Shown: positions 35,853-52,444, counted from the stretch's first letter. The stretch: 64,000 nt of DNA from Actinomycetota bacterium (GCA_046726275.1 JBKPAF010000054.1:471-64470); one strand, 5' to 3'. The notes: generated by a model from the sequence alone, not told the origin. Translations and numbers: made by a program.

Positions 35853-36614
35853 GTGAGGCTCGTGAGGTTCAGGCACGGCGATCGCATCGCTGCGGGCACA
35901 CTGGAGGGGGACTTCGTCCGGCCCCTCCAGGGCACCTTCGTTGAGAACCCCCTTCCGACCGGGGAGGAGATCCCGCTGTCGGTCGTCCGCCTGCTCTCGC
36001 CCGTCCTCCCGTCCAAGGTGGTGTGCGTCGGGCGGAATTACTTGGAGCACGCCCAGGAGATGGGAACCGACGTCCCCGAGGAGCCCGTCCTGTTCATCAA
36101 ACCTTCGACGTCGGTGATCGGGCCGGGCGATCCGATTCCGTACCCCAGGATCTCTGAGCAGGTGGAACCCGAGGGCGAACTGGCTGTGGTCATCGGCCGG
36201 CTGGCCCGGAGGGTGCGAGCCGAGGAGGCTGGGAACTATGTTCTCGGGTTCGCCTGCGGCAACGACGTGACCGCCCGAGACCTCCAGCGCAGGGACGGCC
36301 AGTGGACGCGGGGCAAGGGATTCGACGGCTTCTGCCCCCTCGGGCCGTGGATCGAGACGGAGCTGGACCCCACGGACCTCGAGCTGGAATGCCGGGTCAA
36401 CGGGGAGATCCGCCAGTCCGCCCGGACCTCGCAGCTCGCGTTCGGGCCGAACGTGCTGATCGAGTTCATCACCTCGGTCATGACGCTGCTCCCTGGCGAC
36501 GTGATCCTGACCGGCACACCCGCCGGTGTCGGTCCGATGAAGCCGGGCGATCGCGTCGAGGTCGAGGTGGAGGGCATCGGCATCCTGGAGAACGAGGTGG
36601 TCGAGGGTGACTGA
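35853..36614 (+). CDS. Fumarylacetoacetate hydrolase (FAH) family protein
   Basis: Track ORF of 253 aa. Motifs: VVCVGRNYLEHAQEMG, EGELAVVIG, NDVTARDLQ, GKGFDGFCPLGP, LPGDVILTGTPAGVG. It overlaps the gltX start by 8 nt. Confidence 0.9.
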   Translation: MRLVRFRHGDRIAAGTLEGDFVRPLQGTFVENPLPTGEEIPLSVVRLLSPVLPSKVVCVGRNYLEHAQEMGTDVPEEPVLFIKPSTSVIGPGDPIPYPRISEQVEPEGELAVVIGRLARRVRAEEAGNYVLGFACGNDVTARDLQRRDGQWTRGKGFDGFCPLGPWIETELDPTDLELECRVNGEIRQSARTSQLAFGPNVLIEFITSVMTLLPGDVILTGTPAGVGPMKPGDRVEVEVEGIGILENEVVEGD

Positions 36615-38064
36615 TCCCGTGACCCCGGGATCGGTCCGGTGCCGTATCGCCCCCGCCCCCACGGGCTACATGCACGTCGGGAACGCCCGGACGGCCCTGT
36701 ACAACTGGCTGTTCGCGCGGCATCACGGCGGGGTGTTCATCCTCCGGGTCGAGGACACCGACCGGAAGCGTTCCACCGAAGAGGCCATCGCCATCGTCAC
36801 GGACTCGCTCCGGTGGTTGGACATCCGGTGGGACGAGGGCCCCGAGGTAGGGGGCGAGTTCGGCCCGTACCGGCAGACCGAGCGGCTGGCCATCTACGAG
36901 GAAGCAACTGAACGCTTCCTCCAGGAGGACCGGGCCTACTTCTGCTACTGCACTCCCGAGGAGCTTGAGGACCGCCGGCGCGCGGCGCTCAAGCGCGGGG
37001 AGACCCCCGGGTACGACGGACGGTGCCGCAATCTCACCGCCGCCGAGCGCCGGGCGTTCGAGGCCGAGGGCCGCCCCAGAGCCGTCCGTTTCGCCATGGC
37101 GGGAGAAGACATCAAGGTTCACGACCTGATCAGGGGCGACTCCGACTTCCCCGCGAACGACCTCCGGGACTTCGTGATCATGCGGAGCGATGGCACGCCC
37201 ACCTACCTCCTGGCGGCGGCCGTGGACGACGTGAAGATGCAGATGACGCACGTGATACGGGGAGAGGACCTCCTGCCCTCCACTCCCCGTCAGCAGGAGA
37301 TCATCCATGCCCTGGGCGCCACGCCGCCCGCCTACGCGCACCTCCCCCTCATCGTGGGACCGGACCGCCAGCCCCTGTCCAAGCGCCACGGTTCGGTGGC
37401 GGTGGAGTGGTTCCGCGAGCAGGGATTCCTCCCCGAGGCTCTGGTGAACTATCTGGCCCTGTTGGGATGGTCCTTCGACGAGACCAGCACGTTCTTCAGC
37501 CGGGAGGAGCTCCTGGAGAAGTTTGATCTCGCGCGGGTCTCCCGCAACCCCGCCGCCTTCGACGACGAGAAGCTTCGGTGGATGAATGGCCACTACATCC
37601 GCGAGGCGGACGACGCGAGGCTCACCGAGCTGCTGGTCCACGCGCTGTTCCAGGAAGGCCTGGAGACCGACCTTCAGACCGTCGCCGCGGCGATCCCTCT
37701 GGTGAAGACCCGGATGCACACGCTGAAGGAAGGGGCCGCCCTGATCAGGTTCCTCTTCGTCGAGGAGGTCGAGCCCGACGACAAGGCCCGGAAGATGCTC
37801 GGGCCGGAGCGTGCCGATTACCTACTGGAGGTGGCGTCCCGGTTGGAGGCCGTGGGAGAGTGGAGCCACCAGGAGATCGAGAAGGCTCTCCGCGACCTGC
37901 AGGCAGAGCGCCAGCTTTCCTCCACACAGGCCTTTCAGCCGATCCGCGCGGCCGTCACCGGCACGTTGGTGTCCCCACCGCTCTTCGAGTCGATCGAGCT
38001 CCTGGGGCGGAACCGCACGCTGGACCGGCTGAGGAAGGCAGCAGGCGCCGGGACTCCACCGTAG
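36607..38064 (+). CDS. gltX: Glutamyl-tRNA synthetase
   Basis: Track ORF of 485 aa. Motifs: RIAPAPTGYMHVGNARTALYNW (HIGH-type), RVEDTD, LSKRHG (KMSKS-type). Confidence 0.95.
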   Translation: MTDPVTPGSVRCRIAPAPTGYMHVGNARTALYNWLFARHHGGVFILRVEDTDRKRSTEEAIAIVTDSLRWLDIRWDEGPEVGGEFGPYRQTERLAIYEEATERFLQEDRAYFCYCTPEELEDRRRAALKRGETPGYDGRCRNLTAAERRAFEAEGRPRAVRFAMAGEDIKVHDLIRGDSDFPANDLRDFVIMRSDGTPTYLLAAAVDDVKMQMTHVIRGEDLLPSTPRQQEIIHALGATPPAYAHLPLIVGPDRQPLSKRHGSVAVEWFREQGFLPEALVNYLALLGWSFDETSTFFSREELLEKFDLARVSRNPAAFDDEKLRWMNGHYIREADDARLTELLVHALFQEGLETDLQTVAAAIPLVKTRMHTLKEGAALIRFLFVEEVEPDDKARKMLGPERADYLLEVASRLEAVGEWSHQEIEKALRDLQAERQLSSTQAFQPIRAAVTGTLVSPPLFESIELLGRNRTLDRLRKAAGAGTPP

Positions 38065-38091
38065 CGAACAAACGCCAGGGCCGGCGAGCGG

Positions 38092-38814
38092 TCACCTCAG
38101 GAACAGTCCCGCGACGATGTTGATGGTCATCGCGACCACTCCCGTCCCGAAGACGAACGATAGAAAGGCGTGGCGCAGGATCGTCATGCGGATGGACTTG
38201 GAGCTCACGTCGGTGTCGGACACCTGATAGGTCATCCCGACGGTGAAGGCCAGGTACGCGAAGTCGCCGTAGTCGGGCGGGCGGTCGTCCTTGAAGTCGA
38301 TCCCGCCCCCATGGAGGTAGTAGAGGCTCGCGTACCGAAGGGTGAACACCGTGTGGACGGCTCCCCACGCGAGAACGAGGCTCAGGGACGCGACCGCTGT
38401 GGTCAGCCCCCTGACGGCGCCCGTCTCTCCATTCGCTTTTAGCAGCGCCAGGGCGACCCCGACCAGGCTGGTCAAGCTTGCCGCGATCAGGACGAGGTCG
38501 GACGCAGCTCTGGAGTCGTCCTCGATCGTGGCAACCCTTGCGGTCTCCGCACCGTCCAGGCGTCCGATGCTGAGCCAGACCCACCCGATGAAGACGACGG
38601 CGGCAGCGTTCCACCCCGAGAGCACGGCTACCTGCCACGACGTCAGGAAGATCGAGATGCCCAAGGCGATGAAGCCTGCGGCGAAGGACACCGCCACCCG
38701 GGCCCGCGCGGAAACGTGCGCGCGCTCGATGCGGCCGTCGCCGACGCTCCGCTTCTCGGTGCCCAATACATCCACGATACGCCCAAGCCCGGGGCTGGAC
38801 CCGGCTCCGTGCAT
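38092..38814 (-). CDS. DUF1345-family membrane protein
   Basis: Track ORF 38092..38841; ATG 38814 is preferred. It has 5-6 TM helices. The C-terminal block RYASLYY...GGIDF...PPDYGDFAYLAFTVGMTYQVSD is as I remember for DUF1345. Confidence 0.7.
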   Translation of the reverse strand: MHGAGSSPGLGRIVDVLGTEKRSVGDGRIERAHVSARARVAVSFAAGFIALGISIFLTSWQVAVLSGWNAAAVVFIGWVWLSIGRLDGAETARVATIEDDSRAASDLVLIAASLTSLVGVALALLKANGETGAVRGLTTAVASLSLVLAWGAVHTVFTLRYASLYYLHGGGIDFKDDRPPDYGDFAYLAFTVGMTYQVSDTDVSSKSIRMTILRHAFLSFVFGTGVVAMTINIVAGLFLR

Positions 38815-38833
38815 CGGGCACGTCCGGATGCGC

Positions 38834-38854
38834 AGTCCCAACGGGATTCGAACC
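38834..38854 (-). repeat. 21-nt exact copy of the tRNA-Glu 3' end (T-loop to acceptor 3' strand); att-like distal repeat
   Basis: agtcccaacgggattcgaacc is identical to 49542-49562 of the intact tRNA-Glu gene and in the same orientation. It sits in the 44-nt gap between the DUF1345 start and the serine-hydrolase stop. Confidence 0.75.
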
Positions 38855-38857
38855 GGC

Positions 38858-40033
38858 TCATCCCCGAGCCGCGTCCCTCAGGACCTTTGTCAGTATCTCC
38901 ACTTGGCCGAAAGGATCCTGCGTCGATGCACCGGCCGTGTTTGCCTGGACCGAGATGACCACGCCTTCCTCCGGCAGCGCCACGAGGAGGATCGAGGAGC
39001 AGCAGGTCGAGGCGGAACTCGCTCCCTCGTGGCCGACGGCGAGGGTTCCGTAGGAAACGGAGAAGTCGAAGACTCCGAGCCCGTACCTCATGTCGCAGCA
39101 CGGGTCTTGATAGAAGTCGGTCATCTCCTCAAGGGAGGGGTCGGCAAGCACGAAGCCCCCGTACAGCTCGTAACCCCACCTGGCCAGCGACGCAGGCGTC
39201 GACTCCACCCCCCATCCGTCGGCGGCCAGGGCATCCTCGACCGTGTAGACAAGCCCATCGAGGGCAGGGTTGTCGAGGACGTCCGAGCGCAGGACTTCAG
39301 CCAGGGGGCGCCCGGTGGCGCGCTCGATGATCGTTCCGAGCAGGACGTAGTTCGTGCTCGCGTAGCGAGTCTCGGACCCCGGCCGAATCTCGGGTTCGGG
39401 CAGCCTCCTGAACACCCCGACGGCGGTGGATGCCCGCTCGGCCGGGTAGAAACCCCCTTCCGGCGTAAACTCGTCCAGATCAGGGATGCCGCTGCGCATC
39501 GCCAACACCTGTCGGATAGTGGCTCCGTTCGCGTCGAAGAACCGCAGTTCGGCGGGAAGATGGTCCGAAGCCTGATCATCCAGGCCTAGCTTGCCTTCCT
39601 CGACCAGGCGGAGGACCTGGGCGGCGACGACAGTCTTGCCTGCGCTGTGTGTGGGGCTGCGTGAGTGGGGGGTCAGAGGAATGCCGTCGAGCGACCCGGC
39701 AGCCCCGGCCCAGCTTCCGCGGTCGGCGAGGATCACTGCGGCGGTGACCCCTGTGAACGTGCCCTCATCGACGGCCTCATCGAGCGCTGCCTGGAGCGCT
39801 TCGGCTATCGGCCCCGGGAGGCGCCCATCGGGGAACGGGGGGAACTCCCCGAGTGCATAGGTGGGAGGAGCGTCAGGTCCTGTGTCCGGACTGCCCTCGC
39901 GAGCCGCGGTCGCCGGGGTCGACGAAGAGCTGCAGGCCGCACCTACGAACGCGAGGATCGATACGACGCTGATCACTCCGCGAGTCGTGGACCAAGTTCG
40001 AGATCGGCGGTCCGCCTTCTCGGTTCTGTGCAT
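38858..40033 (-). CDS. Beta-lactamase-fold serine hydrolase, lipoprotein
   Basis: In-frame ATG at 40033 (AAGGAG upstream) in track ORF 38858..40135. Motifs: lipobox ILAFVGAAC-SS, S-x-x-K (THSAGKTVV), Y-x-N (YASTNYVLLG). Confidence 0.8.
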   Translation of the reverse strand: MHRTEKADRRSRTWSTTRGVISVVSILAFVGAACSSSSTPATAAREGSPDTGPDAPPTYALGEFPPFPDGRLPGPIAEALQAALDEAVDEGTFTGVTAAVILADRGSWAGAAGSLDGIPLTPHSRSPTHSAGKTVVAAQVLRLVEEGKLGLDDQASDHLPAELRFFDANGATIRQVLAMRSGIPDLDEFTPEGGFYPAERASTAVGVFRRLPEPEIRPGSETRYASTNYVLLGTIIERATGRPLAEVLRSDVLDNPALDGLVYTVEDALAADGWGVESTPASLARWGYELYGGFVLADPSLEEMTDFYQDPCCDMRYGLGVFDFSVSYGTLAVGHEGASSASTCCSSILLVALPEEGVVISVQANTAGASTQDPFGQVEILTKVLRDAARG

Positions 40034-40275
40034 CTCCCCGCTCCTTTCGCGTCTCGGCGGAGACTTGACGACGTCGTCCTCGACCTGCACGGGTCCATGG
40101 ATGCTCGTGGGAGCCGGTTCGTTTAGGTCAGGCATGGTCCCCGTCGCCGCGGGCGAAGGGACGTGCCGATTGGGGCAAGCTAGTAGGCCGTTCGCGCAAT
40201 ACTTCCTGTCCGAATGCCTCGCCCAAAGGACGCGCCGAGAGCAGACATATTCGGCAACCCGCCTACCTGGTGGAG

Positions 40276-40767
40276 CTATCCCTGGCTGTAGGACGAACGA
40301 GCGAACTCAAGGAACCCGATGTCCCCCGGTGAATGGCCAGCTTGGGTCAGCAAGACGGCTGCGTCGCTGAACTGCTGGATCGCGTGACTCACCAGGTGGA
40401 TGACGTAGTACCAGAGCGGAAGGGGGTTGTCCCCCGGAGGCGGGATCGCGAGCTGCTCGTTCGTAAGCCCGGTGACCCACTGTCGCATCTCGAGTTCGTC
40501 CCGACGCCAGTGATCGGTGATGGAATCAGCGGTCGGGTAATCGTCCGGATTGAGATCCGGCTCTGGTCCAAAGGAACCCGTGCGGAGGCGCTCGCGCCAG
40601 CTCCACTGGACATCCAATTCATGGACCAATGTCGCACGGAGATTACGCGTGGTCACGACATCCGAGGCCGCGAGCTCATCGAACGAAAGGCCCGCAGCCG
40701 CCGCGAGGACGCGATCGCGAAGCCAGTAGAGGTAATCAAAGAGGACCCGGACATCATCGGCACGCAT
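40276..40767 (-). CDS. DinB-family protein
   Basis: Track ORF of 163 aa. It looks like a four-helix DinB pattern with conserved His positions (LVHELDVQW, VIHLVSHAIQ) and the N-terminal FDYLYWLRDRVL. Confidence 0.7.
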   Translation of the reverse strand: MRADDVRVLFDYLYWLRDRVLAAAAGLSFDELAASDVVTTRNLRATLVHELDVQWSWRERLRTGSFGPEPDLNPDDYPTADSITDHWRRDELEMRQWVTGLTNEQLAIPPPGDNPLPLWYYVIHLVSHAIQQFSDAAVLLTQAGHSPGDIGFLEFARSSYSQG

Positions 40768-40981
40768 CGATTGAGTCTAGCCTGCAACCGGGTTCGGGAA
40801 GACAGCTCTCCATGCCACCACAACACGCAGCGAATGGTTCTCTGCGAACACTGGCCATAGAACCGCTTCGAGGTAGGAGGGGTGCAGTGAACATGAACGA
40901 GGAGCACCGTCTAGAGCGCGCCAGGCTTGCCGAGGCGATGCGCAAGGCGGCTGCCCATCGGCCCGATCATGACAGGCCGCC

Positions 40982-41644
40982 GTGGTGCTATCGCTGCCGT
41001 TCGCCGGTTCCTGGGTGGCGGTGAACACGCCGGCGCGGAAGGTGCCGAGCCATGGCACGCACTTCCTGGGACAGACTTTCGCGATCGACTTTGTGAAGGT
41101 GGACAGGCGGTCACGAACGGCCACCGTTCGAGACTGGCGAACCGTGATCGCGATCGAGCCGCTCGACCGGTTCCTTGGATTCGGGGACCCGATCCTCGCG
41201 CCGGCGAATGGGCGAGTGGTCACCGTCCACGATGGAGAGGAAGATCATGCGGCGCGGCGCTCGCCGCTAACTGTGATCCCGTACCTCCTGACCCAAGGGG
41301 TGAGGCTCCGCCGTGGGCTGGGCGCGGTTACCGGCAATCATTTGACCTTGGCACTGGGTGAGGATGGGCCGTTTGTCAGTCTGGGGCACCTCCGCCGGGG
41401 TTCGCAGGAGGTGCGACCAGGTGACCGGGTCGAACTGGAACAGCCGATCGCAGCCTGTGGCAGCTCTGGCAACAGCACCCAGCCACATGTGCACGTTCAA
41501 GTTATGGATTCCCCCGATCTGCTTGCGTGCCGAGGCCTGCCCATGGCCTTTCGCGAGTACCTGGCGTGGCGGCCCGGCGCGGACGAACCACAACGCATCA
41601 GTCAAGGCGTCCCTGGCTTCCGCGAGAGGGTTGAGGCTACCTAG
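40982..41644 (+). CDS. M23/LytM-like metallopeptidase domain protein (divergent first metal motif, no signal peptide)
   Basis: Track ORF of 220 aa. GSSGNSTQPHVHVQV matches the M23 HxH signature. The upstream PSHGTHFLGQTFAIDF replaces the canonical HxxxD. Confidence 0.55.
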   Translation: MVLSLPFAGSWVAVNTPARKVPSHGTHFLGQTFAIDFVKVDRRSRTATVRDWRTVIAIEPLDRFLGFGDPILAPANGRVVTVHDGEEDHAARRSPLTVIPYLLTQGVRLRRGLGAVTGNHLTLALGEDGPFVSLGHLRRGSQEVRPGDRVELEQPIAACGSSGNSTQPHVHVQVMDSPDLLACRGLPMAFREYLAWRPGADEPQRISQGVPGFRERVEAT

Positions 41645-41841
41645 CCAAGCAAGCTACGGGGGGTGGCGCGGTGCGGAAATGTCCCTCCTACGAGGGCTTG
41701 TTATCTGTTGACGGTCAGGAATCCGCACGGACGCGCTATCGGTTGCGCTCGTTTCCGAGCCTCTCCCGGGCTCTGAGCCATTACGAGTGAGCCATTCGTC
41801 CGTGGGCGAGTGTTCCGGAAATGTCGCTCCAGCCTCGGAGA

Positions 41842-42351
41842 TCAGCCAGCCGAGGGCAAACGTTCCGCCCGAACGGCCAGGACCGTCTCGTATTCGTGAG
41901 CAGTGATCCGAACGACGCCCGTTGGGAAGCCGGCCTTGGCATTCGCCTGGACCCGAGGGTTCGACTCTGTCGGGTCGATTCGCGGCAGGACGGCATGCAT
42001 CGGCACCGGCGGATCCCATTCCTCGACTTGCGCGAGCATCACTCCGCTTGGAGAGTCGCCGAGGTATATCTGCGCCTCGGACGGTGTCCATTGACGGACG
42101 GCTGAGCCAAGCTCGGCGCGACCGATGAACGCTCGCTCCGGTTCCGCCAGATAGATGAGAATGAGGTCACCTGGGGCGAGCGCGTCGCAGTGCGTCTCGT
42201 CGGCATCGACGCCCCACAGCTTGACTCGCAAGGACGCAGCGGCTTGTTCGCTTAGCGATCCCCCCTTCGCTGCGTGCCTCTTTGAGAAGTTGAACAGGTA
42301 GTGGCCCACTCCCGAAGCGTACTCCGGGCTGTCGCAGGACCCTGCTTCCAA
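41842..42351 (-). CDS. PUA-like (EVE/ASCH-type) domain protein, tentative
   Basis: Track ORF of 169 aa. The pattern HYLFNFS...LWGV...LAPGDLILIY...RAFIGRAELGS...GVMLAQVEEW resembles EVE/PUA-fold beta-barrels. This is recognition by eye only. Confidence 0.35.
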   Translation of the reverse strand: MEAGSCDSPEYASGVGHYLFNFSKRHAAKGGSLSEQAAASLRVKLWGVDADETHCDALAPGDLILIYLAEPERAFIGRAELGSAVRQWTPSEAQIYLGDSPSGVMLAQVEEWDPPVPMHAVLPRIDPTESNPRVQANAKAGFPTGVVRITAHEYETVLAVRAERLPSAG

Positions 42352-42354
42352 GCT

Positions 42355-43582
42355 CTACCGATCCCAGTCGACCACTGCGCGAAACAGCGGAGCCCGCTCG
42401 GTGATCCCCTTCAGCACGATAACGTCAGCCTGTTCGAACTTCACCTTGGGGCTGTTCACGGAATCCCGTACTGCCTCGCTCACCAGCACCTCGCCCGGCC
42501 CGGCAGCCTGGGCCAGACGGGAGGCCAGGTTAACTGTTCGTCCGAACAGGTCGAGGTCGCGCTCGATCAGGGGGCCGGCGTGGACTCCCGCACGGCTCGG
42601 GAGTTTGCCATGGACGTTCAGGGCCTCGACCAGGGCCAGGGCGGCCATCAGCCCCCGCTCTGCGTCGGGGAACCGGAGCATGGCGCCATCGCCCAGGAGC
42701 TTCACCAGCCGCCCGTCGTTCGCGGTCGCCACGGCCTCCGCCTCTCGCGGAAGGGTCGAGGCGAACCTCACGGCTACCTCGTCTCCGTGCTCCTCCGTCA
42801 GCCGCGTGTATCCCGTGAGGTCGACGAAGACCACCGCGGGCGGTGCCGACGGCTGCGGGGGAGGAGCCAGCCCTCGGGCGGCGAAGAACTCCTCGAACCC
42901 TTCCACGATGCCCGCCATGCTGCGCTGCTCGAGGTATTGCTGAAAGAGCCATTCCATCATCCAGGGGAGAAGGCTCAGCACCGTAACGATGGTCTCCCGA
43001 GCCTCCTCGGGGGACCGTTCGATCTCTCCGCTATAGAGACGCTCTCGGACTGGCCCGGCAACCTGCTCAACGAAGAGCTCAACCCACCCCGAGCGTCGCC
43101 ATACGAGTACCCTCGGCGAGAAGTCGGGCTGCCCTGACCAGTGTGTCGTCACTCCGAGCGGGGCTCCATCCCTTGAGGAACTGTTGGAGCCGCTCCTCTT
43201 CGTCGGTGTGGATGGGCGATGAGGGGTCGGGCTGGGGCAGCCCCAGTGACGCATACACGGCCGGGAGGAGCGACGCCCTCGGACCAGCGGTGGCCATGAA
43301 ATCGGCGAAGGTTCGCTGGGACCGAGGGCCCGGCTCCACCACCAAGTACTCGTCCACGCGATCGAGGTTGACGTGCCCCTCGGAGACTGCCCACTCGACT
43401 TGTTGCGAAGTGAACCCGGCCCCCAGAAGGGCAGCAACGAGCTTGGCTCGGAAGACATCGCCGAACCGGAAGGCTCCCGGCTCACGAGGCTTGAGGATCC
43501 CGATACTAAGCAACCACTCGATGCGGTCCAAGGAGACGCCGGCATCCTCAGCGACCTCCTCCGCGGAGAAGGTCCTGATCAC
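42355..43582 (-). pseudogene. MerR-like HTH + class III adenylate/guanylate cyclase, split by a 1-nt frameshift at a C4/G4 run (about 43084-43090)
   Basis: Track ORF 43079..43582 holds the HTH (FSAEEVAEDAGVSLDRIEWLLSIGIL) and a helical region, ending ...TLGVG*. The adjacent frame (42355..43086 onward) continues WVELFVEQ... into the cyclase core VVFVDLTGYTRLTE...KLLGDGAML...RAGVHAGP...GRTVNLASR. The two frames overlap at cggggtgggttga. Confidence 0.55.
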
Positions 43583-43702
43583 ACAGGGATTCTAGAAGGG
43601 GATGCTTTTGGCCCCGTGATAGGTGCTTCTGGGACCTGAGCGATGCTGTTCTTCGGTTGCTGCTTGCGGAACCGACTCCTTGGTTTAGGAGTAAGGGAGG
43701 GT

Positions 43703-44629
43703 ATGGACACACGCCCAGTCATTCCCATGGCCACAGTGCTTCTGCTCGCGGCTTGCTCCGGTGGCTCGGCACCGCACCGTCCTGACCCAACGGTGAAACC
43801 GAGGGCATCTTCCTTCACCGCGACAGGCACGCGATCGGCCGTTACCCTACTGTCGGGCCGCATCGTCTTCGACAACTTCCACGACGTCTGGTCTATCAAC
43901 GCTGACGGGACGGACCTTACCCGGCTCACCAAGTCACCCTGGCCCGAGTTCGACGCCACGTGGTCCCCGGACGGAACTCGGATCGCCTTTCGCTCCGAGC
44001 CCAAAGGGGATCAAGAGATCTGGCTCATGAACGCAGACGGATCCGGACCTCACCGGCTGGCTCGTGGCCTCTCTCCGGCCTGGTCTCCCGACGGCTCGAA
44101 GATCGCGTACGCGAGCCCCGGGGACATCCCGTGTCCTCCCGGCCGAGGACTCCGGTGCACAGGGGTCTCGATCATGAACGCCGATGGCTCCGGCCGGCAC
44201 CGCATACCGAACACCGACGGAGGCGAATACCCCTCGTGGTCCCCCGACGGGGAACGGATCGCCTTCAACTCCAACCTCTCCGGCGATCATGTGATGTACA
44301 TCGTCAACGTCGACGGTTCCGGGCTGGTGGACCTCTCCAGCGTGGGAGAGGGATGGCAGGTCGACTGGTCCCCTGACGGTCGCTCCATCCTGTTCACCTC
44401 ACATCGAGACCATCCGGACAACTACACAGACATCTACGTGATGCGCCCGGACGGGTCGGGAGTGAAACGGCTGACACACAATCGCGGGTACACGCCCGCC
44501 TGGTCTCCAGATGGCAGCCACATCGTGTTCTCCGCCCCGGCGCTCTTCGTGATGCGAGCGGATGGCTCCGGCATCACTTCGCTACCGGTCGATGGAGTTG
44601 GGGAAACGTCCCTGCCGGACTGGCTGTAA
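43703..44629 (+). CDS. TolB-like PD40 beta-propeller lipoprotein
   Basis: In-frame ATG at 43703 (AAGGGAGG upstream) in track ORF 43643..44629. Lipobox LLLAAC-SG. Five W-S-P-D-G repeats: ATWSPDGTRIAF, PAWSPDGSKIAY, PSWSPDGERIAF, VDWSPDGRSILF, PAWSPDGSHIVF. Confidence 0.8.
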   Translation: MDTRPVIPMATVLLLAACSGGSAPHRPDPTVKPRASSFTATGTRSAVTLLSGRIVFDNFHDVWSINADGTDLTRLTKSPWPEFDATWSPDGTRIAFRSEPKGDQEIWLMNADGSGPHRLARGLSPAWSPDGSKIAYASPGDIPCPPGRGLRCTGVSIMNADGSGRHRIPNTDGGEYPSWSPDGERIAFNSNLSGDHVMYIVNVDGSGLVDLSSVGEGWQVDWSPDGRSILFTSHRDHPDNYTDIYVMRPDGSGVKRLTHNRGYTPAWSPDGSHIVFSAPALFVMRADGSGITSLPVDGVGETSLPDWL

Positions 44630-44680
44630 TCTGCGGGATCTTGCGGGATCGGGGCCGGCCTGAGAGTGCGTCTGCGCTGG

Positions 44681-44726
44681 TAGTCCCAACGGGATTCGAA
44701 CCCGTGTATTCACCTTGAGAGGGTGA
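44681..44726 (-). repeat. 46-nt partial tRNA-Glu copy (anticodon arm to discriminator); att-like repeat / displaced tRNA 3' half
   Basis: 43 of 46 nt are identical to 49541-49586. The first 27 nt are exact, then a 15-nt block is exact. Two of the three differences form a compensatory pair closing the anticodon stem: TCACC/GGTGA versus CCACC/GGTGG. No matching tRNA 5' half lies upstream. Confidence 0.8.
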
Positions 44727-45002
44727 TTCAGGGGTGCAGGCCAGAGGCTCGATAGCCTCCCTGACCGGGTCGCCGCCGTGCTTACGGGGCTTGTCGCGGG
44801 GGCATTCGGCCAATCGCTCGGACAGTCTCTTGCCTGCATCGACGGGGCGCGAGGCGTCCTTCACGCTGAGCGCCTCGCGACGAAGCCCACGGAATGTACG
44901 CCCGCACCACCTCGGGCCCCGATGCGGTGCTTCCCCCTGGCGGCCGGAATGCGTCGCCTGTAGGGTCGTCCGAGATCTGCTGATCGCGAGGATCGAGGGG
45001 GC

Positions 45003-47153
45003 GTGACCGAGCAGGGTGGAACCGGTCGGTGGCCGATGGTGCTGGTTGCCGGCGCGTTGATCGGTGTTGTCGAGGCGGTGTTCGCGGTCGCGTTCGCCTC
45101 GCTCGTCTTCGGCGGACGGATCAGCGACTACCTGGCTGAGGGCATCAGCCTGTACCTGGGTGCCGCGGTCCTGACCCTTGTGATCCTCGCATGGCGCGCC
45201 GGGAAGAGGGGTATGGTCGGCAGCCTGCAGGCGACGGGTGCGGCGCTGCTCTCGATCGTTGCCGCCACGACCGGCCTCAGGGGGAGCCCCGAGACGGGCT
45301 TCCTCTCCGTCGTCGCCGCTACTGTGGTCGTGACGGTCCTCTGCGGGGTGGTGTTCCTCGTCCTGGGGGCGCGCCGACGCGGTGACCTGATCCGGTACAT
45401 CCCTGTTCCGGTCGTCGGCGGATTCATCGCTGGGGCAGGGTGGCTGCTCCTGCAGGCCGGGGTCCACATCGCGATCGACAAGCCGCTCTTCTACACATAC
45501 CTCGACGAAATCTTCGATGGCCGAGCTGTGCGCTTGTGGCTTCCCGCCGTGGCCTTCGGCGTGGTCCTGTTCCTCGCCGTGCGGATCGTGAGGAACCCCT
45601 TCGTGATCCCGGTGACGATCGGCATCGGGCTGGTGGGATTCGCGCTCGTGACGCGCGTGATGGGGGTGTCGATCGAAGAGGCTCGTGGGGGTGGATGGCT
45701 GTTGGGACCGTTCCAGCCGGCCATGCCCTGGAAGTCCTGGAGCGTCCCGGCGCTCGCCGGGGCTGACTGGATCGCCGTCGCGCGATCCTGGGCGGCGATC
45801 GTCGTCGCGGTGATCGTCGCCGCCCTTGTGATGCTGTTCAACCTCGGTGGGACCGAGGTCGTCCTCGACCGGGATCTGGATACTGACGAGGAGCTCCGTG
45901 ACGCAGGGCTGCTGAACGTCGTCTCGGGCGCTCTCGTGGGCGGAATCCCCGGCTTCCATGCCCTAAGCCTCACGTCCCTGGCGGCCCGTATGAACGTCGA
46001 CGCGCGGCGGGCGGGCCTGGTCGCCGCCACCGTCCCCCTGGCTGTGCTGCTGCTCGGTGCAACCGTCTTCGAGCGGATCCCCAGGATGATCGTCGGCGGG
46101 ATGCTCGTGTTCCTGGGCCTGTCGTTCATCGCCGAATGGGTCTGGGAGCGGCGCAGGTTATTGCCCCGGATCGAATACGCCGTCGTCCTGGTGATCCTCA
46201 CGGTGGTCGTGGTGAGGGGGTACTTGCCGGGGATCGTCGTCGGGCTCGTGCTCGCGGTGGGACTGTTCGCAGTCAGCTACGGCCGGGTCGACCTGGTGCG
46301 CGAGGTCACCTTCGGAGACGTCTACCGCAGCAATGTCGACCGCCCGCCCGCCGAACGCGAACGCCTCCGTGCCCTCGCAGACAGCGTCCAGATCCTGCGG
46401 GTAAGCGGACACGTGTTCTTCGGTTCCACGAACCGCCTGCTCGAGCGGATCCGGGCGAGAGTCGAGGGTGACTCTCCCCCCCGTTTCCTCGTGATCGACC
46501 TACGGCGCGTGACCGGCGTCGACGCCTCCGCGGCGGCCGCCCTCGCGAGGGCGGAACGACTGACCTCCGCCCAGGGCATCGAGATCGTGCTCACGGGGGC
46601 GTCTGAGGCAGTGCGCACAAGGCTCGAGCGCGGCGGCATCCTCGGCACCCAGGGCGTCGTCTCATTCGAGGCCGACCTGGATAGCGGCTTGCAGCGCTGC
46701 GAGGAGGCGCTGCTCGAGGGTGCCACGCCCGAGGACGACGGGGTCACGAGCCCGGACGGATTGCCTCCGGGGCTCGCCCCCTACCTCGACCGCGTGCCCT
46801 TGGCGGAGGGGACCGTCCTGCTCCATCAGGACGAGCCACCGGGCGACGTCTATGTGCTTGCAGAGGGCCGCCTCGCCGTGGAGACCAGCACGCCCGAGGG
46901 TAAGCGCGTACGGGTGCGAACGCTCCGCCCCGGGGTCGTCGTTGGCGAGATCGCGCTGTATACGGGGGTGCCGCGCATCGCGGACGTCGTCGCAGAGACG
47001 CGGTGCGTGGTCCTCCGATGTTCGAGCGAGCAGATCGCACGGATCGAGGCCGAGGACCCTGATGTGGCCGCCGGGCTGCACCGTTGGCTCGCCGGCACGC
47101 TCGCAGACCGGCTGGACCACGCGACGCGCACCCTCGACGCGCTGCTGGACTGA
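45003..47153 (+). CDS. SulP/SLC26-family anion transporter fused to STAS and cyclic-nucleotide-binding domains, paralogue 1
   Basis: Track ORF of 716 aa. SulP-type IRYIPVPVVGGFIAGAGWLL plus more than 10 TM helices. STAS: LRVSGHVFFGSTNRLLERI...FLVIDLRRVTGVDASA. CNB: GDVYVLAEGRLAVE...LRPGVVVGEIALYTGVPRIADVVA. Confidence 0.85.
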   Translation: MTEQGGTGRWPMVLVAGALIGVVEAVFAVAFASLVFGGRISDYLAEGISLYLGAAVLTLVILAWRAGKRGMVGSLQATGAALLSIVAATTGLRGSPETGFLSVVAATVVVTVLCGVVFLVLGARRRGDLIRYIPVPVVGGFIAGAGWLLLQAGVHIAIDKPLFYTYLDEIFDGRAVRLWLPAVAFGVVLFLAVRIVRNPFVIPVTIGIGLVGFALVTRVMGVSIEEARGGGWLLGPFQPAMPWKSWSVPALAGADWIAVARSWAAIVVAVIVAALVMLFNLGGTEVVLDRDLDTDEELRDAGLLNVVSGALVGGIPGFHALSLTSLAARMNVDARRAGLVAATVPLAVLLLGATVFERIPRMIVGGMLVFLGLSFIAEWVWERRRLLPRIEYAVVLVILTVVVVRGYLPGIVVGLVLAVGLFAVSYGRVDLVREVTFGDVYRSNVDRPPAERERLRALADSVQILRVSGHVFFGSTNRLLERIRARVEGDSPPRFLVIDLRRVTGVDASAAAALARAERLTSAQGIEIVLTGASEAVRTRLERGGILGTQGVVSFEADLDSGLQRCEEALLEGATPEDDGVTSPDGLPPGLAPYLDRVPLAEGTVLLHQDEPPGDVYVLAEGRLAVETSTPEGKRVRVRTLRPGVVVGEIALYTGVPRIADVVAETRCVVLRCSSEQIARIEAEDPDVAAGLHRWLAGTLADRLDHATRTLDALLD

Positions 47154-47167
47154 GGTTGCAGGGCATC

Positions 47168-49360
47168 GTGTCGACGCCGCGATCCGAGGGGTGGCCCACC
47201 ACGATCGCCGCCGGCGTCATCATCGGCGCCGTCGAGACCGTGCTCGCCGTGGCGTTCGCCGCCTTCATATTCGGCGGGCTGCTCCAGGAGAACCTGCCCG
47301 ACGGCATCGGGCTGTACCTTGCTGCCGCCGCCCTGACGGTCGCGACGTTCGCGTGGCGAGGGGGCCGCCGCGGCATCGTCGGGAGCGTGCAGGACGCCGC
47401 GGCAGCCGTGCTGGCGGGTGCGGCCTCTGCCGCCGCGGCGAAGGCCGCGCAACTTCAACAGGTCGCGGCTATCGTGAAACTGAAGGACTACGAGGCCCCC
47501 GACGTTTTCCTCACCGTGATCGCGGCGACGCTGGTGGTCACGGTGCTGTGCGGGGTGTTCTTCCTGGTGCTCGGATGGCGCCGGTGGGGGAACCTTATCC
47601 GGTTCGTACCGTACCCGGTCGTCGGCGGGTTCCTGGCCGGCACGGGCTGGCTCCTCCTCACGGGCGGGATCTACGTGGCCTCGCGCGTGCAGATCCACCT
47701 CAACAGAGTCGACGACCTGGCGCGCCCGTACACCTTGGTGCGCTGGTTACCCGCCTTAGCCTTCGGGGTGATCCTCCTGCTCGCCGTGCGGATAGTGCGG
47801 AAGCCCCTGGTGATCCCGGTAATGATCGGCATCGGGCTTGCGGTGTTCGTCTTGGTCGCCCTGGCGAACGGCTCGGGTCTCGACGAGCTCCGTGAGGGCA
47901 GGTGGTTGCTCGGGCCGTTCGAGACGACCAGGCTCTGGCAGCCCTGGACGCTGCGCGCGGTCACCGGCGCGGACTGGGGGACCGTGGTCGAATCGTGGCC
48001 GACGATCGCCACCGCCGTGTTCGTCGCCGCTTTGGCCCTGCTGTTCAATATCGGAGGGACCGAGCTCTTGCTGGATCGGGACCTGGACACCAACGTAGAG
48101 TTGCGCGATGCCGGCGTGCTGAACGTCGTGTCCGGGGCGCTCGGCGGGATCCCGGGGTACCACGCGCTCAGCCTCACCGCGCTGGCGGCGCGGATGAACG
48201 TCAACGCACGCCGCGCGGGCCTCATCGGCGCATTCGTCCCGTTGGCCGCCGTTGTGGCCGGCGCCTCGGTCGTCGAGCTGATCCCACGGATGATCGTAAG
48301 CGGCGTGCTCGTGTTCCTGGGGCTCGCCTTCATCGTCGAGTGGGTCTGGGACAAGCGGAAGATCCTCTCTCGGATCGAGTACCTCGGGGTCCTTGTGATC
48401 CTCGGCATGATCATCGCCCAGGGGTACCTCGCCGGCATTGTGGTCGGCCTGGTGCTCGCAGCCCTGCTGTTCGCGTTCAGCTACGGGCGGGTTGACCTCG
48501 TGCGACAGGTCTCGTTCGGAGATACGTACCACAGCAACGTCGACCGCCCTCCCGCCGAGCGCGCGGCGCTGCGTGCACTGCGAGACCGCGTCCTGATCCT
48601 GCGCGTGAGCGGGTTCGTCTTCTTCGGCTCGACCGCCCGCTTGCTCGAGCTGACCCGGGCCAGGGTCGAGTCCTCATCACCGCGGTTCCTGGTGATCGAC
48701 CTGCGCCGCGTTACCGGCATGGACGCCTCGGCCGTCGTCGCGTTCTCCAAGGCGATGCGCGTGGCCGGCTCACACGGATCCGAGCTGGTCGTCACGGGGG
48801 CTTCCGAACCGGTGCGCGCCGAGCTCGAGCGGGGCGGGGTGACCGAGCAGGGGGGGAGCCTCCGGTTCGAGCCCGACCTCGACCGGGGTCTGGAACGCTG
48901 CGAGGATGTGTTGCTCGCGGAGGAGGTGGCGGCTGTGGGCGAGCAGGTAGCCCGAGGCCGCGACGGGCTGCCCGCCGGCTTGGCCCCCTACATGGAGCGG
49001 GTAGTGGTGAGCGAGGGCTCGGTGGTGCTGCGGCAGGACGAGCCGTCCGGCGACCTCTACGTCCTCGCGGAAGGCCGGCTGGCGGTCGAGACAGTCACCC
49101 CCGAAGGCAGGCGCGTGCGACTCAGGATCCTCCGCCCGGGGGTTGTGGTTGGCGAGCTCGCGTTCTACACGGGTGCGCCGCGCACCGCAGACGTCGTGGC
49201 CCAGACGCCCTGTGTGGTCCTCCGGTGTTCACGGGAGCAGATCGCGCGGATAGAGGCCGACGACCCCGTGGTAGCCATCGTCTTGCATCGCTGGTTCGCA
49301 GAGACGCTTGCGGGGCGGCTGAGCGAAACGATGCACACGTTCGACTCGTTGCTCGATTAG
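47168..49360 (+). CDS. SulP/SLC26-STAS-cyclic-nucleotide-binding transporter, paralogue 2
   Basis: In-frame GTG at 47168 in track ORF 47084..49360, 14 nt after the paralogue 1 stop. It is collinear with paralogue 1 end to end, for example IRFVPYPVVGGFLAGTGWLL, LRVSGFVFFGSTARLLEL, LRPGVVVGELAFYTGAPRTADVVA. Confidence 0.85.
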   Translation: MSTPRSEGWPTTIAAGVIIGAVETVLAVAFAAFIFGGLLQENLPDGIGLYLAAAALTVATFAWRGGRRGIVGSVQDAAAAVLAGAASAAAAKAAQLQQVAAIVKLKDYEAPDVFLTVIAATLVVTVLCGVFFLVLGWRRWGNLIRFVPYPVVGGFLAGTGWLLLTGGIYVASRVQIHLNRVDDLARPYTLVRWLPALAFGVILLLAVRIVRKPLVIPVMIGIGLAVFVLVALANGSGLDELREGRWLLGPFETTRLWQPWTLRAVTGADWGTVVESWPTIATAVFVAALALLFNIGGTELLLDRDLDTNVELRDAGVLNVVSGALGGIPGYHALSLTALAARMNVNARRAGLIGAFVPLAAVVAGASVVELIPRMIVSGVLVFLGLAFIVEWVWDKRKILSRIEYLGVLVILGMIIAQGYLAGIVVGLVLAALLFAFSYGRVDLVRQVSFGDTYHSNVDRPPAERAALRALRDRVLILRVSGFVFFGSTARLLELTRARVESSSPRFLVIDLRRVTGMDASAVVAFSKAMRVAGSHGSELVVTGASEPVRAELERGGVTEQGGSLRFEPDLDRGLERCEDVLLAEEVAAVGEQVARGRDGLPAGLAPYMERVVVSEGSVVLRQDEPSGDLYVLAEGRLAVETVTPEGRRVRLRILRPGVVVGELAFYTGAPRTADVVAQTPCVVLRCSREQIARIEADDPVVAIVLHRWFAETLAGRLSETMHTFDSLLD

Positions 49361-49540
49361 GCCCGGTCCTTGTAGCGTTCCGGCCAGAGCACCGCTCCAC
49401 CGGATGATCGAGCACTACTACGGCCGCCTGATCGAGGTCCATGGACGCCGAGATCGCGGCACGGTTGGGAAGCTCCCCGCGATGGGACCAGGTGGGGACC
49501 AAGCGGACGGCCGGATAACCCGCACTGCCTCTGACCTGTG

Positions 49541-49613
49541 TAGTCCCAACGGGATTCGAACCCGTGTCTCCACCTTGAGAGGGTGGTGTCCTAGGCCTCT
49601 AGACGATGGGACC
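49541..49613 (-). tRNA. tRNA-Glu (anticodon CUC)
   Basis: Reverse complement: GGTCCCATCGTCTAGAGGCCTAGGACACCACCCTCTCAAGGTGGAGACACGGGTTCGAATCCCGTTGGGACTA. It folds as a cloverleaf with a 7-bp acceptor, D arm TCTAGAGGCCTAGGA, anticodon stem CCACC/GGTGG, loop CTCTCAA, and T arm ACGGG-TTCGAAT-CCCGT. CCA is not encoded. Confidence 0.9.
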
Positions 49614-51682: not shown

Positions 51683-51696
51683 GAGGTCGGGTCGGC

Positions 51697-52428: not shown

Positions 52429-52444
52429 CTCGATCGCCTCCCTA

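What the first reader, a model, noticed from the sequence alone, without database searches (positions are those of the whole stretch)
38834..49613. tRNA-Glu followed by two nested copies of its own 3' end: two stacked, integrase-less islands
**The three copies.** An intact tRNA-Glu(CUC) lies at 49541-49613 on the minus strand. Moving away from its 3' end, in the same orientation, its 3' portion recurs twice.
- 44681-44726 covers 46 nt, from the anticodon arm to the discriminator base. 43 of 46 positions are identical, including exact runs of 27 nt and 15 nt.
- 38834-38854 covers 21 nt, from the T loop to the acceptor 3' strand, and is an exact match.

**Evidence the longer copy came from a real tRNA.** Two of its three differences form a compensatory pair that keeps the anticodon stem closed: TCACC/GGTGA versus CCACC/GGTGG. 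It therefore descends from a functional tRNA-Glu allele and is not chance similarity.

**Interpretation.**
- This is the classic footprint of site-specific integration into a tRNA gene.
- The two repeat lengths fit two successive events at different tRNA sublocations, the anticodon loop and then the T loop.
- They delimit a 4.8-kb proximal segment and a 5.8-kb distal segment.
- The distal segment looks lower in GC, has mixed gene orientation and contains a frameshifted gene.

**What is unusual.** Neither segment retains a recombinase, excisionase or any phage/ICE backbone gene in any frame I read.
Basis: partly seen in the sequence, partly recalled or inferred. Interest (0 to 1): 0.6.

Follow-up and report, generated by a model that had tools for sequence, protein, structure and literature searches.

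The report
Decayed gene islands stacked behind tRNA-Glu
The 11.5 kb between the glutamyl-tRNA synthetase gene and a tRNA-Glu gene is a pile of old insertions made by integrase-carrying mobile elements that later lost their integrases; this is a real but ordinary, well-known kind of genome hotspot.

Summary
**Observation: confirmed.** An intact tRNA-Glu(CUC) lies at 49540-49613 (-). A 48-nt copy of its 3' part (45/48 identical) lies at 44680-44727. An exact 21-nt copy lies at 38834-38854. These are the only copies in the assembly and score far above shuffled sequence.

**Interpretation: largely right.**
- In this uncultured Actinomycetota order, gltX and tRNA-Glu(CUC) are ancestrally convergent neighbours, 4-172 bp apart. 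Here they are 11.5 kb apart.
- Relatives hold unrelated cargo at the same spot. Some carry up to four tRNA fragments. Three have a tyrosine integrase directly beside the tRNA.

- The proximal segment is not fully recombinase-free. A frameshifted remnant of about 36 codons from an integrase 3' end sits at 49366-49473, between the SulP2 stop and the tRNA.
- Both tRNA-side junctions carry tandem repeats that look like integrase arm sites. The distal ones share the 8-mer used by an integrase-bearing relative.
- The 21-nt copy is more likely a truncated fragment than a T-loop crossover.
- DUF1345 (38092-38817) is a third inserted block.

**Verdict.** These are fossil integrative elements stacked by serial insertion (tandem accretion) and then decayed, like cis-mobilizable elements (CIMEs). 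This is a new instance of a known kind, of low to moderate interest.

The parts
36607..38064 (+). gltX (glutamyl-tRNA synthetase), the conserved anchor on the far side of the hotspot
   Evidence: 86% amino-acid identity to the G001 copy. The G034 counterpart hits PF00749. In relatives it is convergent with tRNA-Glu(CUC) and 4-172 bp from it in G032, G038 and G004.
38092..38817 (-). DUF1345 gene, the oldest inserted block, with no att copy left on the gltX side
   Evidence: PF07077, E 8e-55. GC3 is 0.87. Found in only 10 of 41 relatives and never at this locus. Absent from same-genus G001 at the DNA level.
38834..38854 (-). Copy 3: exact 21-nt copy of the tRNA-Glu T loop through the acceptor 3' strand, probably a truncated displaced tRNA end
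   Evidence: It starts 3 nt after the stop codon of the serine hydrolase gene. The same junction is in independent contig L137.
38858..44629 (.). Distal cargo block. Genes: serine hydrolase of the beta-lactamase family (38858-40135 -); DinB (40276-40767 -); M23 peptidase (40982-41644 +); EVE-like protein (41842-42351 -); frameshifted MerR-HTH plus class III cyclase (42355-43582 -); PD40 beta-propeller lipoprotein (43643-44629 +)
   Evidence: Pfam hits. GC3 is 0.72-0.78 against 0.81-0.90 for nearly all other genes of the window. Absent from G001.
44632..44650 (.). Two tandem TGCGGGATC repeats with a 10-nt period, starting 2 nt after the PD40 stop. Inferred arm-type integrase sites of the distal element
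   Evidence: This is one of only about 8 loci with a 9-mer near-tandem repeat in the 64 kb. The integrase-bearing element of G013:C66 has GCGGGATC three times at the equivalent place.
44680..44727 (-). Copy 2: 48-nt copy of the tRNA-Glu 3' part, from the anticodon stem to the 3' end, 45/48 identical. It is the junction between the two elements
   Evidence: It has the same extent (ATCACC...ACTAC) as the att repeat of the integrase-bearing G039 island.
44728..44892 (.). 165-bp stretch between copy 2 and the start of homology to other SulP loci. Possibly the far arm of the proximal element
   Evidence: Homology to the closest SulP locus (L051) begins near 44893. The role is inferred only.
45003..49360 (+). 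Proximal cargo: two tandem paralogous SulP-STAS-cNMP-binding transporter genes (45003-47153 and 47084-49360)
   Evidence: Pfam hits. The paralogues are 60-62% identical and the genome has no other copy. GC3 is 0.86-0.88. None of 62 homologous loci in other MAGs has a tRNA-Glu gene or fragment within 8 kb.
49366..49518 (+). Frameshifted remnant of a tyrosine-integrase 3' end, including the region of the catalytic Tyr. The best-supported part is 49366-49473
   Evidence: A frameshift-aware alignment to the G013:C66 integrase C-terminus scores 77. That is rank 1 of 710 blocks; the next unrelated block scores 46 and the 99th percentile is 41. About 18 of 36 residues are identical by hand alignment of the frames.
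49484..49501 (.). Two GGGACCA repeats with an 11-nt period inside the integrase tail. Inferred arm-type sites of the proximal element
   Evidence: The geometry matches integrase-bearing G030 (TGGAACCCC twice, 2 nt from the integrase stop) and the G019 remnant. A 7-mer repeat alone is weak evidence (about 0.16 per 100 nt).
49528..49539 (-). 12-nt extension (ACAGGTCAGAGG) directly after the tRNA 3' end, shared with tRNA-Glu genes and fragments of other genera
   Evidence: The pattern GGGACTACRCAGGTCNRAGG occurs in 21 of 294 genomes of the order against 1 control hit. It follows intact tRNAs in 12 of 19 checked loci and fragments in the rest.
49540..49613 (-). Intact tRNA-Glu(CUC), the target gene. 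Its 3' part was resupplied by the last element to integrate
   Evidence: ARAGORN. Identical in the anticodon arm to the tRNA of same-genus G001 and most relatives.

Best explanation
The interval between gltX and tRNA-Glu(CUC) is an integration hotspot. It holds the fossils of at least two, probably three, successive insertions.

**Mechanism.**
1. Tyrosine-integrase elements recombined their attP with the 3' part of the tRNA gene (anticodon stem to 3' end). Their attP carries a tRNA-like copy of that part.
2. Each insertion rebuilt a working tRNA from the element's own copy. It pushed the previous 3' end, and everything behind it, away from the gene.
3. This produced the order: gltX | DUF1345 | copy 3 | distal block | copy 2 | SulP pair | tRNA.
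4. Deletions then removed the integrases and any backbone genes. The proximal element keeps only the last 36 or so codons of its integrase plus its arm repeats. The distal element keeps only its arm repeats. The oldest boundary is gone.

**Present state.** The assembly (88% complete) has no cognate integrase, so the blocks are now fixed cargo unless a related element arrives.

**What is shown.** The repeats, the hotspot, the empty sites, the integrase-bearing relatives and the integrase remnant.

**What is inferred.** The order of events, the position of crossover, the function of the tandem repeats as arm sites, and how the SulP pair became cargo.
For: 1. **Three specific copies.** They are the only copies in the genome.
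2. **Empty sites.** The gltX-tRNA gap is 4 bp in G032, 15 bp in G038 and 172 bp in G004, which is in the same family. It is 1.1-28 kb in 15 other relatives. Cargo was read in five of those intervals and differs in every one.
3. **Integrase-bearing islands at the same tRNA.**
   - G039 has an integrase, an XRE-type regulator, a type I restriction-modification system and an IS256 transposase, spanning 19 kb. It is bounded by a 48-nt repeat of the same extent as copy 2.
   - G013:C66 and G030:C171 also have an integrase beside the tRNA.
   - The G013 and G039 integrases are 43% identical.
4. **Stacking is common.** Extra 3' fragments occur in G001 (2), G005 (1), G013 (2), G019 (4), G030 (1) and G039 (2).
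5. **Integrase remnant.** It lies at 49366-49473 and ranks 1 of 710 blocks. It sits where intact integrases end in G013 and G030. The integrase-less tier next to the tRNA in G019 has an analogous remnant, scoring 98 against the G039 integrase.
6. **Arm-like repeats.** Tandem repeats lie 30-45 nt beyond both tRNA-side junctions. The distal 8-mer GCGGGATC equals the triple repeat in the G013 integrase tail.
7. **Composition and distribution.** The distal block has low GC3 and is absent from same-genus G001. SulP homologues elsewhere are never at tRNA-Glu. DUF1345 is patchy.
8. **Functional allele.** The copy 2 anticodon stem equals that of the functional G039 tRNA.
Against: - No complete integrase, excisionase or transfer gene is in the interval, so mobility is inferred only from relatives and a remnant.
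- The read-through remnant peptide gives no Pfam hit. It matches the G013 integrase but not the G039 one significantly.
- The proximal cargo has host-like composition, and its closest homologue (L051, 92%) lies in a different, non-tRNA context. How it became element cargo is unknown.
- The three mismatches of copy 2 do not fit a simple crossover in the anticodon loop.
- The 12-nt extension and a conserved block of about 90 nt also follow intact tRNAs that have no integrase nearby in G154 and G145. Their reading as an attP arm is therefore not secure.
- Only one of the three junctions is confirmed in an independent assembly.
Confidence: 0.8

Rival explanations
1. The blocks are not dead fossils. 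They would be integrase-less cassettes that stay recombination-competent, with att core plus arm sites retained. An integrase from a related incoming or co-resident element would move them in trans or in cis. The tRNA-Glu site would then act as a shared, integron-like docking platform across the order.
For: - Arm-like repeats survive at both tRNA-side junctions although the integrases are gone. The cargo stop codon abuts them (2 nt after the PD40 stop).
- G019 has four small tiers of 1.3-5.1 kb and no integrase within 130 kb.
- Two independent genomes keep only the 3' tail of the integrase, the part that overlaps the arm repeats.
- Cis-mobilisation of such remnants is documented in streptococci and Streptomyces (PMC5704250).
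Against: - No cognate integrase is in this genome; the best match is 27% identical, next to tRNA-Met on C13.
- The outer boundary of the distal block is cut to 21 nt, and the DUF1345 block has no outer boundary at all.
- No homologous cassette was seen at the same site in another genome. The PD40 genes of G019 and the window are only about 35% identical, like paralogues.
Confidence: 0.12
2. The copies are decayed pseudogenes of tandemly duplicated tRNA-Glu genes, and the genes between them are ordinary chromosomal DNA. No mobile element would be involved.
For: Copy 2 keeps a complete, base-paired anticodon arm of a functional allele. The proximal genes have host-like GC3.
Against: - Both copies are 3' parts only, in direct orientation. 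Copy 2 begins at the anticodon stem, where the att repeat of the G039 island begins; copy 3 is shorter.
- The ancestral locus has a single tRNA gene abutting gltX.
- An integrase remnant and arm repeats lie at the junctions.
Confidence: 0.03
3. The nested arrangement is an assembly artefact. The MAG contig would have been joined wrongly through the repeated tRNA sequence.
For: - The genome is a 102-contig MAG.
- The same-genus assembly G001 breaks exactly at the tRNA, and its fragments sit on short contigs.
- Repeats of 21-48 nt can mislead assemblers.
Against: - The repeats are shorter than typical reads or k-mer chains, and copy 2 differs at 3 positions.
- The copy 3 junction is 99% identical in an independent JGI contig.
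- The same stacked architecture is seen in long contigs of 0.5-3 Mb of other genomes.
Confidence: 0.03

Closest known systems
Cis-mobilizable elements (CIMEs) and tandem accretion at the 3' ends of tRNA and other genes (ICESt1-type elements of Streptococcus thermophilus; review PMC5704250)
   Same: - The segments are bounded by att copies derived from the target gene's 3' end.
- They have lost integration and transfer genes.
- They are stacked because a later element integrated into the site that still carries the gene end.
- Decay by internal deletion is the proposed origin.
   Different: - The host is an uncultured Actinomycetota lineage.
- No conjugation or mobilisation module is recognisable in these blocks or in the intact relatives examined. 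The G039 island carries defence genes and an IS element.
- The outer att of the distal block is truncated.
- Mobilisation is untested.
Tycheposon islands of Prochlorococcus (bioRxiv 10.1101/2020.12.28.424599)
   Same: - Repeated integration at one tRNA pushes older elements further into the island.
- The islands contain extra partial tRNAs and fragmented integrases as remnants of older events.
- The cargo is small metabolic or transport modules.
   Different: - The phylum is different.
- The integrases here were not compared with the tycheposon family.
- No replication or packaging module was seen.
- The comparison is by behaviour only.
tmRNA (ssrA)-specific genomic islands of Dehalococcoides (PMC3146451)
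   Same: Serial site-specific insertions at one small-RNA gene, giving tandem islands separated by direct repeats of the gene's 3' end. That comparison follows earlier scan notes and my own knowledge; only the title and abstract of the paper were seen.
   Different: The target is ssrA rather than a tRNA, the cargo is reductive dehalogenase genes, and the lineage is different.
Classical tRNA-integrated genomic islands and prophages. The sublocation classes of tyrosine integrases (Williams 2002, Nucleic Acids Res.) are cited from my own knowledge and were not read here
   Same: - The identity block runs from the anticodon stem to the 3' end.
- The tRNA is regenerated by the element.
- In intact relatives the integrase gene lies next to the tRNA and converges on it.
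   Different: In the window the integrase is reduced to about 36 decayed codons, and no backbone genes remain.

Membership tests
tRNA-integrated genomic island (tyrosine-integrase type) | Segment bounded by an intact tRNA gene and a direct repeat of its 3' part | tested here: met
   The tRNA is at 49540-49613, with a 48-nt copy (45/48) and a 21-nt copy, both in direct orientation.
tRNA-integrated genomic island (tyrosine-integrase type) | Functional integrase gene inside the segment, usually next to the tRNA | tested here: not met
   No PF00589 hit in 38-49.6 kb. Only a frameshifted 3' remnant at 49366-49473.
tRNA-integrated genomic island (tyrosine-integrase type) | Empty site in related genomes | tested here: met
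   The gltX-tRNA gap is 4, 15 and 172 bp in G032, G038 and G004. The distal block and DUF1345 are absent from G001.
tRNA-integrated genomic island (tyrosine-integrase type) | Composition differs from the host | tested here: inconclusive
   The distal block has GC3 0.72-0.78, against 0.81-0.90 for most genes of the window. The proximal block (0.86-0.88) and DUF1345 (0.87) are host-like.
CIME (cis-mobilizable element) | Both attL and attR retained | tested here: inconclusive
   The proximal block has both, at 45/48 identity. The outer site of the distal block is cut to 21 nt. The DUF1345 block has no outer site.
CIME (cis-mobilizable element) | No integration or transfer genes of its own | tested here: met
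   Pfam scan of all plausible ORFs and a six-frame PF00589 search.
CIME (cis-mobilizable element) | Derived from an ICE or IME by deletion | tested here: inconclusive
   The integrase remnant shows deletion from an integrase-bearing element. No conjugation or mobilisation gene was seen even in the intact relatives examined.
CIME (cis-mobilizable element) | Excises or transfers when a related element integrates alongside | not testable with these tools
Tycheposon | Tycheposon-family tyrosine recombinase plus replication or packaging module | not tested
   There is no intact integrase in the window. The relatives' integrases were not compared with tycheposon integrases.
Integron | IntI integrase with attI and attC-bounded cassettes | tested here: not met
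   No integrase is present. The boundaries are tRNA 3' copies, not attC hairpins.

The most novel reading that the evidence does not exclude
In this Actinomycetota order the arm-type sites of the tRNA-Glu integrases lie inside the last codons of the integrase gene. Deletion derivatives that keep only the att core plus this tail could therefore remain recombination-competent. The gltX/tRNA-Glu site would then work as an integron-like platform, where small integrase-less cargo cassettes of 1-6 kb are captured, stacked and reshuffled in trans by integrases of visiting elements. Examples would be the window's two blocks and the four tiers in G019.
Probability: 0.12. Interest if true: 0.55.

Novelty: new member of a known kind. 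Interest (0 to 1): 0.24.

Why it matters
- It explains why 11.5 kb of accessory genes sit between two housekeeping genes that are normally neighbours. These genes include a pair of cyclic-nucleotide-gated SulP transporters, a cyclase, a serine hydrolase and DinB.
- It shows that tRNA-Glu(CUC) is a recurrent gene-exchange site across a whole order of uncultured soil Actinomycetota.
- For annotation, the tRNA fragments, the integrase remnant and the arm repeats mark the true island limits.
- For biology it is a textbook case of accretion and decay, not a new mechanism.
- One point is mildly new: two genomes independently keep just the integrase 3' tail that overlaps the arm repeats. That makes trans-mobilisation of such remnants a testable idea.

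Tried and rejected
1. **Other integrase pieces.** I scanned the interval with eight 60-residue slices of the G013 integrase in a frameshift-aware alignment. Only the C-terminal slice hit.
2. **Pfam on the remnant peptide.** The 40-residue read-through peptide gave no hit. It is too short to be informative.
3. **Shared PD40 cassette.** G019 also has a PD40 gene abutting a tRNA fragment, so I tested whether it is the same cassette. It is not: identity is about 35%, the same as to paralogues.
4. **SulP genes at tRNA-Glu elsewhere.** None of 62 homologous loci in other MAGs has a tRNA-Glu gene or fragment.
5. **Metagenome scan with the 19-nt distal arm repeat.** It found 13 contigs, none with a tRNA-Glu piece. 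These are chance or unrelated matches.
6. **Exact-protein look-ups** of the PD40 and DinB products found nothing on record.
7. **The 12-nt extension next to a G013-like integrase.** This was not seen in 16 genomes. Pfam on the neighbours in G154 and G145 found no integrase, and there was no second tRNA copy within 9-14 kb.
8. **Conserved ~90-nt block as a structured RNA.** RNAalifold gives -7.9 kcal/mol with a covariation term of about 0, so I rejected this.
9. **Further tRNA-Glu or tRNA-Gln fragments** in 36-64 kb: none.

Full report
**1. The observation**

ARAGORN calls tRNA-Glu(ctc) at 49540-49613 on the minus strand. The only other tRNA in the window is tRNA-Gln(ctg) at 59809-59880.

Reading the three places on the minus strand and searching the tRNA against the whole 2.54-Mb assembly gives three copies on this contig:
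- the gene itself;
- tRNA positions 29-74 at window 44680-44725, 95.7% identical;
- tRNA positions 52-72 at 38834-38854, 100% identical.

Elsewhere the search finds a second, different tRNA-Glu on C21 and two generic T-loop hits of 15-16 nt.

With the two flanking bases, the long copy is a 48-nt block at 44680-44727 with 45/48 identity. It differs at position 27 (C to T), position 43 (G to A) and one variable-loop base.

A local-alignment scan of 36-64 kb on both strands scores the three copies 96, 82 and 42. Shuffled sequence reaches at most 25, and no fourth copy exists. The neighbouring tRNA-Gln shares only the generic 11-nt T loop with the copies, so the 21-mer is specific to tRNA-Glu(CUC). 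Neither fragment is part of a second tRNA gene.

**2. Genes**

The DNA is about 67% GC, so I called genes by the codon-position GC pattern and named them with Pfam. The order along the window is:

| Coordinates | Strand | Feature |
|---|---|---|
| 36607-38064 | + | gltX |
| 38092-38817 | - | DUF1345 |
| 38834-38854 | - | copy 3 |
| 38858-40135 | - | serine hydrolase (beta-lactamase family) |
| 40276-40767 | - | DinB |
| 40982-41644 | + | M23 peptidase |
| 41842-42351 | - | weak EVE-like protein |
| 42355-43582 | - | MerR-like HTH ORF plus class III cyclase ORF |
| 43643-44629 | + | PD40 propeller lipoprotein |
| 44680-44727 | - | copy 2 |
| 45003-47153, 47084-49360 | + | two SulP-STAS-cNMP-binding transporters, 60-62% identical to each other |
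| 49540-49613 | - | tRNA-Glu(CUC) |

The HTH and cyclase ORFs overlap in two frames and meet at a G-rich run.

The six distal genes have GC3 of 0.72-0.78. The SulP genes have 0.86 and 0.88, DUF1345 0.87 and gltX 0.89. Nearly all other genes of the window have 0.81-0.90. A six-frame search with PF00589 finds no integrase in the interval.

**3. The locus is a hotspot**

I located the tRNA and gltX in 40 relatives from the same genus, family and order. The two genes are convergent neighbours.
- The gap between the gltX stop and the tRNA 3' end is 4 bp in G032, 15 bp in G038 and 172 bp in G004, which is in the same family.
- In 15 other relatives where both genes share a contig the gap is 1.1-28 kb.
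- I read the cargo in five of these intervals and it differs in each:
  - a galT-like gene in G009;
  - a zinc-ribbon protein in G025;
  - a secreted glycosidase-like protein in G026;
  - a GGDEF-EAL gene plus an amidase in G034;
  - hemerythrin, DJ-1, ArsM and ArsR in same-genus G001.

In the window the gap is 11.5 kb. The whole of 38065-49539 is therefore inserted DNA relative to the ancestral state, including DUF1345.

DUF1345 occurs in only 10 of 41 relatives and never at this locus. G001 lacks the distal block and DUF1345 at the DNA level. It has a single SulP homologue, only 67% identical, in another context.

**4. Who made the insertions**

Extra 3' fragments of tRNA-Glu(CUC) occur in G001 (2), G005 (1), G013 (2), G019 (4), G030 (1) and G039 (2).

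Three genomes have a tyrosine integrase directly downstream of the tRNA and converging on it.
- **G039.** A 19-kb island carries an integrase, an XRE-type regulator, DUF3037 and HipA-like genes, a type I restriction-modification system and an IS256 transposase. It is bounded by a perfect repeat, ATCACC...GGGACTAC. This is the extent of the window's copy 2.
- **G013 and G039.** Their integrases are 43% identical, so they belong to one family.
- **G013.** One fragment lies 20 bp after the gltX stop, another lies 2 kb further on, and the integrase-bearing element is next to the tRNA. This is the stacked order the model predicts.
- **G019.** It has five tiers and no integrase within 130 kb.

The intact G039 tRNA has the TCACC/GGTGA anticodon stem seen in copy 2. 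That stem therefore comes from a functional allele.

**5. Traces of the elements in the window**

(a) *Integrase remnant.* The 180 bp between the SulP2 stop (49360) and the tRNA read, in two frames with two frameshifts, as VLVAFRPEHRST / RMIEHYYGRLIEV / MDAEIAARLGS. The G013 integrase C-terminus reads LLVAARLGHTSTRMVERHYVSLFEGLDREIGDQLGA, which includes the Tyr of the catalytic motif.
- I wrote a protein-versus-DNA alignment that allows frameshifts and ran it over the whole window on both strands. The remnant scores 77 and ranks 1 of 710 blocks. The best unrelated block scores 46 and the 99th percentile is 41.
- No other slice of the integrase finds anything in the interval.
- The remnant sits where intact integrase genes end in G013 and G030.
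- The integrase-less tier next to the tRNA in G019 has the same kind of remnant, scoring 98 against the G039 integrase. Older tiers have none.

(b) *Arm-like repeats.* Tandem short repeats follow each tRNA-side junction.
- GGGACCA occurs twice at 49484-49501, inside the integrase tail.
- TGCGGGATC occurs twice at 44632-44650, starting 2 nt after the PD40 stop.
- The whole 64 kb has only about eight loci with a 9-mer near-tandem repeat.
- Integrase-bearing G030 has TGGAACCCC twice, 2 nt from the integrase stop.
- G013:C66 has GCGGGATC three times inside its integrase tail. This is the same 8-mer as the window's distal repeats.
- I read these as arm-type integrase sites. That is an inference.

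(c) *Extension beyond the tRNA.* The 12 nt after the tRNA end (ACAGGTCAGAGG) belong to a motif found in 21 of 294 genomes of the order, against one hit for the reversed control. It follows both intact tRNAs and fragments.

**6. The proximal cargo**
- None of 62 homologous SulP loci in other Actinomycetota MAGs has a tRNA-Glu gene or fragment within 8 kb. Several lie near tRNA-Arg(CCT).
- The closest locus, L051 at 92% protein identity, is homologous to the window from about 44893 to the SulP2 stop codon and no further.
- The SulP pair is therefore a discrete module, flanked on one side by 165 bp of unrelated DNA plus copy 2. On the other side lie the integrase remnant, the arm repeats and the tRNA.
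- I cannot tell whether it was original cargo or was brought in by later recombination.

**7. How it most likely works**

Elements of this family carry an attP that contains a tRNA-like copy of the 3' part of tRNA-Glu(CUC). Integration regenerates the tRNA from that copy and displaces the old end. A later element repeats the process, so the youngest tier is next to the tRNA. Deletions then erode integrases and backbone genes.

This is the accretion-and-decay route described for cis-mobilizable elements (PMC5704250). It also matches Prochlorococcus islands, where stacked elements, extra partial tRNAs and fragmented integrases are reported (bioRxiv 10.1101/2020.12.28.424599).

The best integrase match elsewhere in this 88%-complete assembly is 27% identical and lies next to tRNA-Met. 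The remnants are therefore probably immobile now.

**8.
- The "T-loop sublocation" idea is not needed. Nearly all fragments seen in relatives reach the anticodon loop or stem; two are shorter. Copy 3 begins 3 nt after the serine hydrolase stop codon. Truncation is the simpler reading.
- The three mismatches of copy 2 fit best if crossover lay 3' of them. Copy 2 would then keep the element's own tRNA-like allele, and the working tRNA would keep the native one. This is an inference.
- The lack of an integrase is common for such sites, not unusual.

**9. Open points**
- A conserved block of about 90 nt follows the 12-nt extension in several genera. It follows intact tRNAs in G154, G145, G105 and G285, and fragments in G155, G110 and G001 (twice).
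- Where I looked, it has no integrase nearby. It shows no conserved RNA fold.
- It could be the arm of another element lineage whose integrase lies elsewhere. I could not settle this.
- Only the copy 3 junction is confirmed in an independent assembly.

**10. Verdict**

The feature is real and correctly recognised. It is a new instance of a known kind: tRNA-targeted integrative elements stacked and then decayed at a hotspot. Interest is low to moderate.

Noticed in passing
window 59809-61273: A decayed tyrosine recombinase lies just upstream (5' side) of tRNA-Gln(CUG). A SAM-like N-terminal domain is in the frame of 60052-60951 and the start of the catalytic domain (PF00589, E 1.7e-8) is in the frame of 60362-61273. 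No tRNA-Gln fragment occurs anywhere in the window.
   Followed up: partly
window 49614-59808: The spacer between tRNA-Gln and tRNA-Glu is 10.2 kb here and 10.6 kb in G028, but only 0.76 kb in G034. The DNA behind tRNA-Gln is probably a second variable region. An alpha/beta hydrolase gene with low GC3 (0.73) abuts the tRNA-Gln 3' end at 58689-59798.
   Followed up: partly
L113-L131, L022, L023 (relatives); window 49428-49539: A conserved block of about 90 nt (GCAGGTCAGAGGCCATATCC...AGTGGCCCCGCATTGGCCCCGCGGCGTACAC) follows tRNA-Glu(CUC) genes or fragments in several genera of two families. No integrase lies beside it where checked, and it shows no conserved RNA fold. Its nature is unexplained.
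   Followed up: partly
L018 (G019:C2:364001-384000): A five-tier stack sits behind tRNA-Glu. Four 3' fragments delimit blocks of 1.3-5.1 kb, one of them a single PD40 gene. A G039-like integrase 3' remnant lies next to the tRNA (about L018 17950-18060). The genome looks like a long-read MAG with many frameshifts.
   Followed up: partly
window 42355-43582: A MerR-like HTH ORF and a class III nucleotidyl cyclase ORF overlap in two frames at a G-rich run near 43079-43095. This is either a real frameshift or an assembly error. The genome has many other cyclase paralogues.
   Followed up: partly
window 42355-49360: A nucleotide cyclase gene in the distal block lies next to two cNMP-binding SulP transporters in the proximal block. 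Two separately acquired modules may form one cyclic-nucleotide signalling unit, or the adjacency may be chance.
   Followed up: no
G000:C13:122-1495 (own genome, other contig): A tyrosine integrase at the very start of contig C13 lies next to tRNA-Met(CAT). This is probably another tRNA-integrated island in the same genome.
   Followed up: no
L138 (JGI 3300036854 contig): A 79%-identical serine hydrolase homologue lies a few genes from a PD40/Tricorn-like propeller and a nucleotide cyclase. The gene content resembles the window's distal block. That block may be a chunk of another actinomycete's chromosome rather than classic mobile-element cargo.
   Followed up: no
L021 8942-9012 (G013:C4): ARAGORN calls a 71-nt tRNA-Glu(ctc) at what otherwise looks like a displaced 3' fragment with an unrelated 5' half. 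It is likely a false tRNA call or a hybrid pseudo-tRNA.
   Followed up: no
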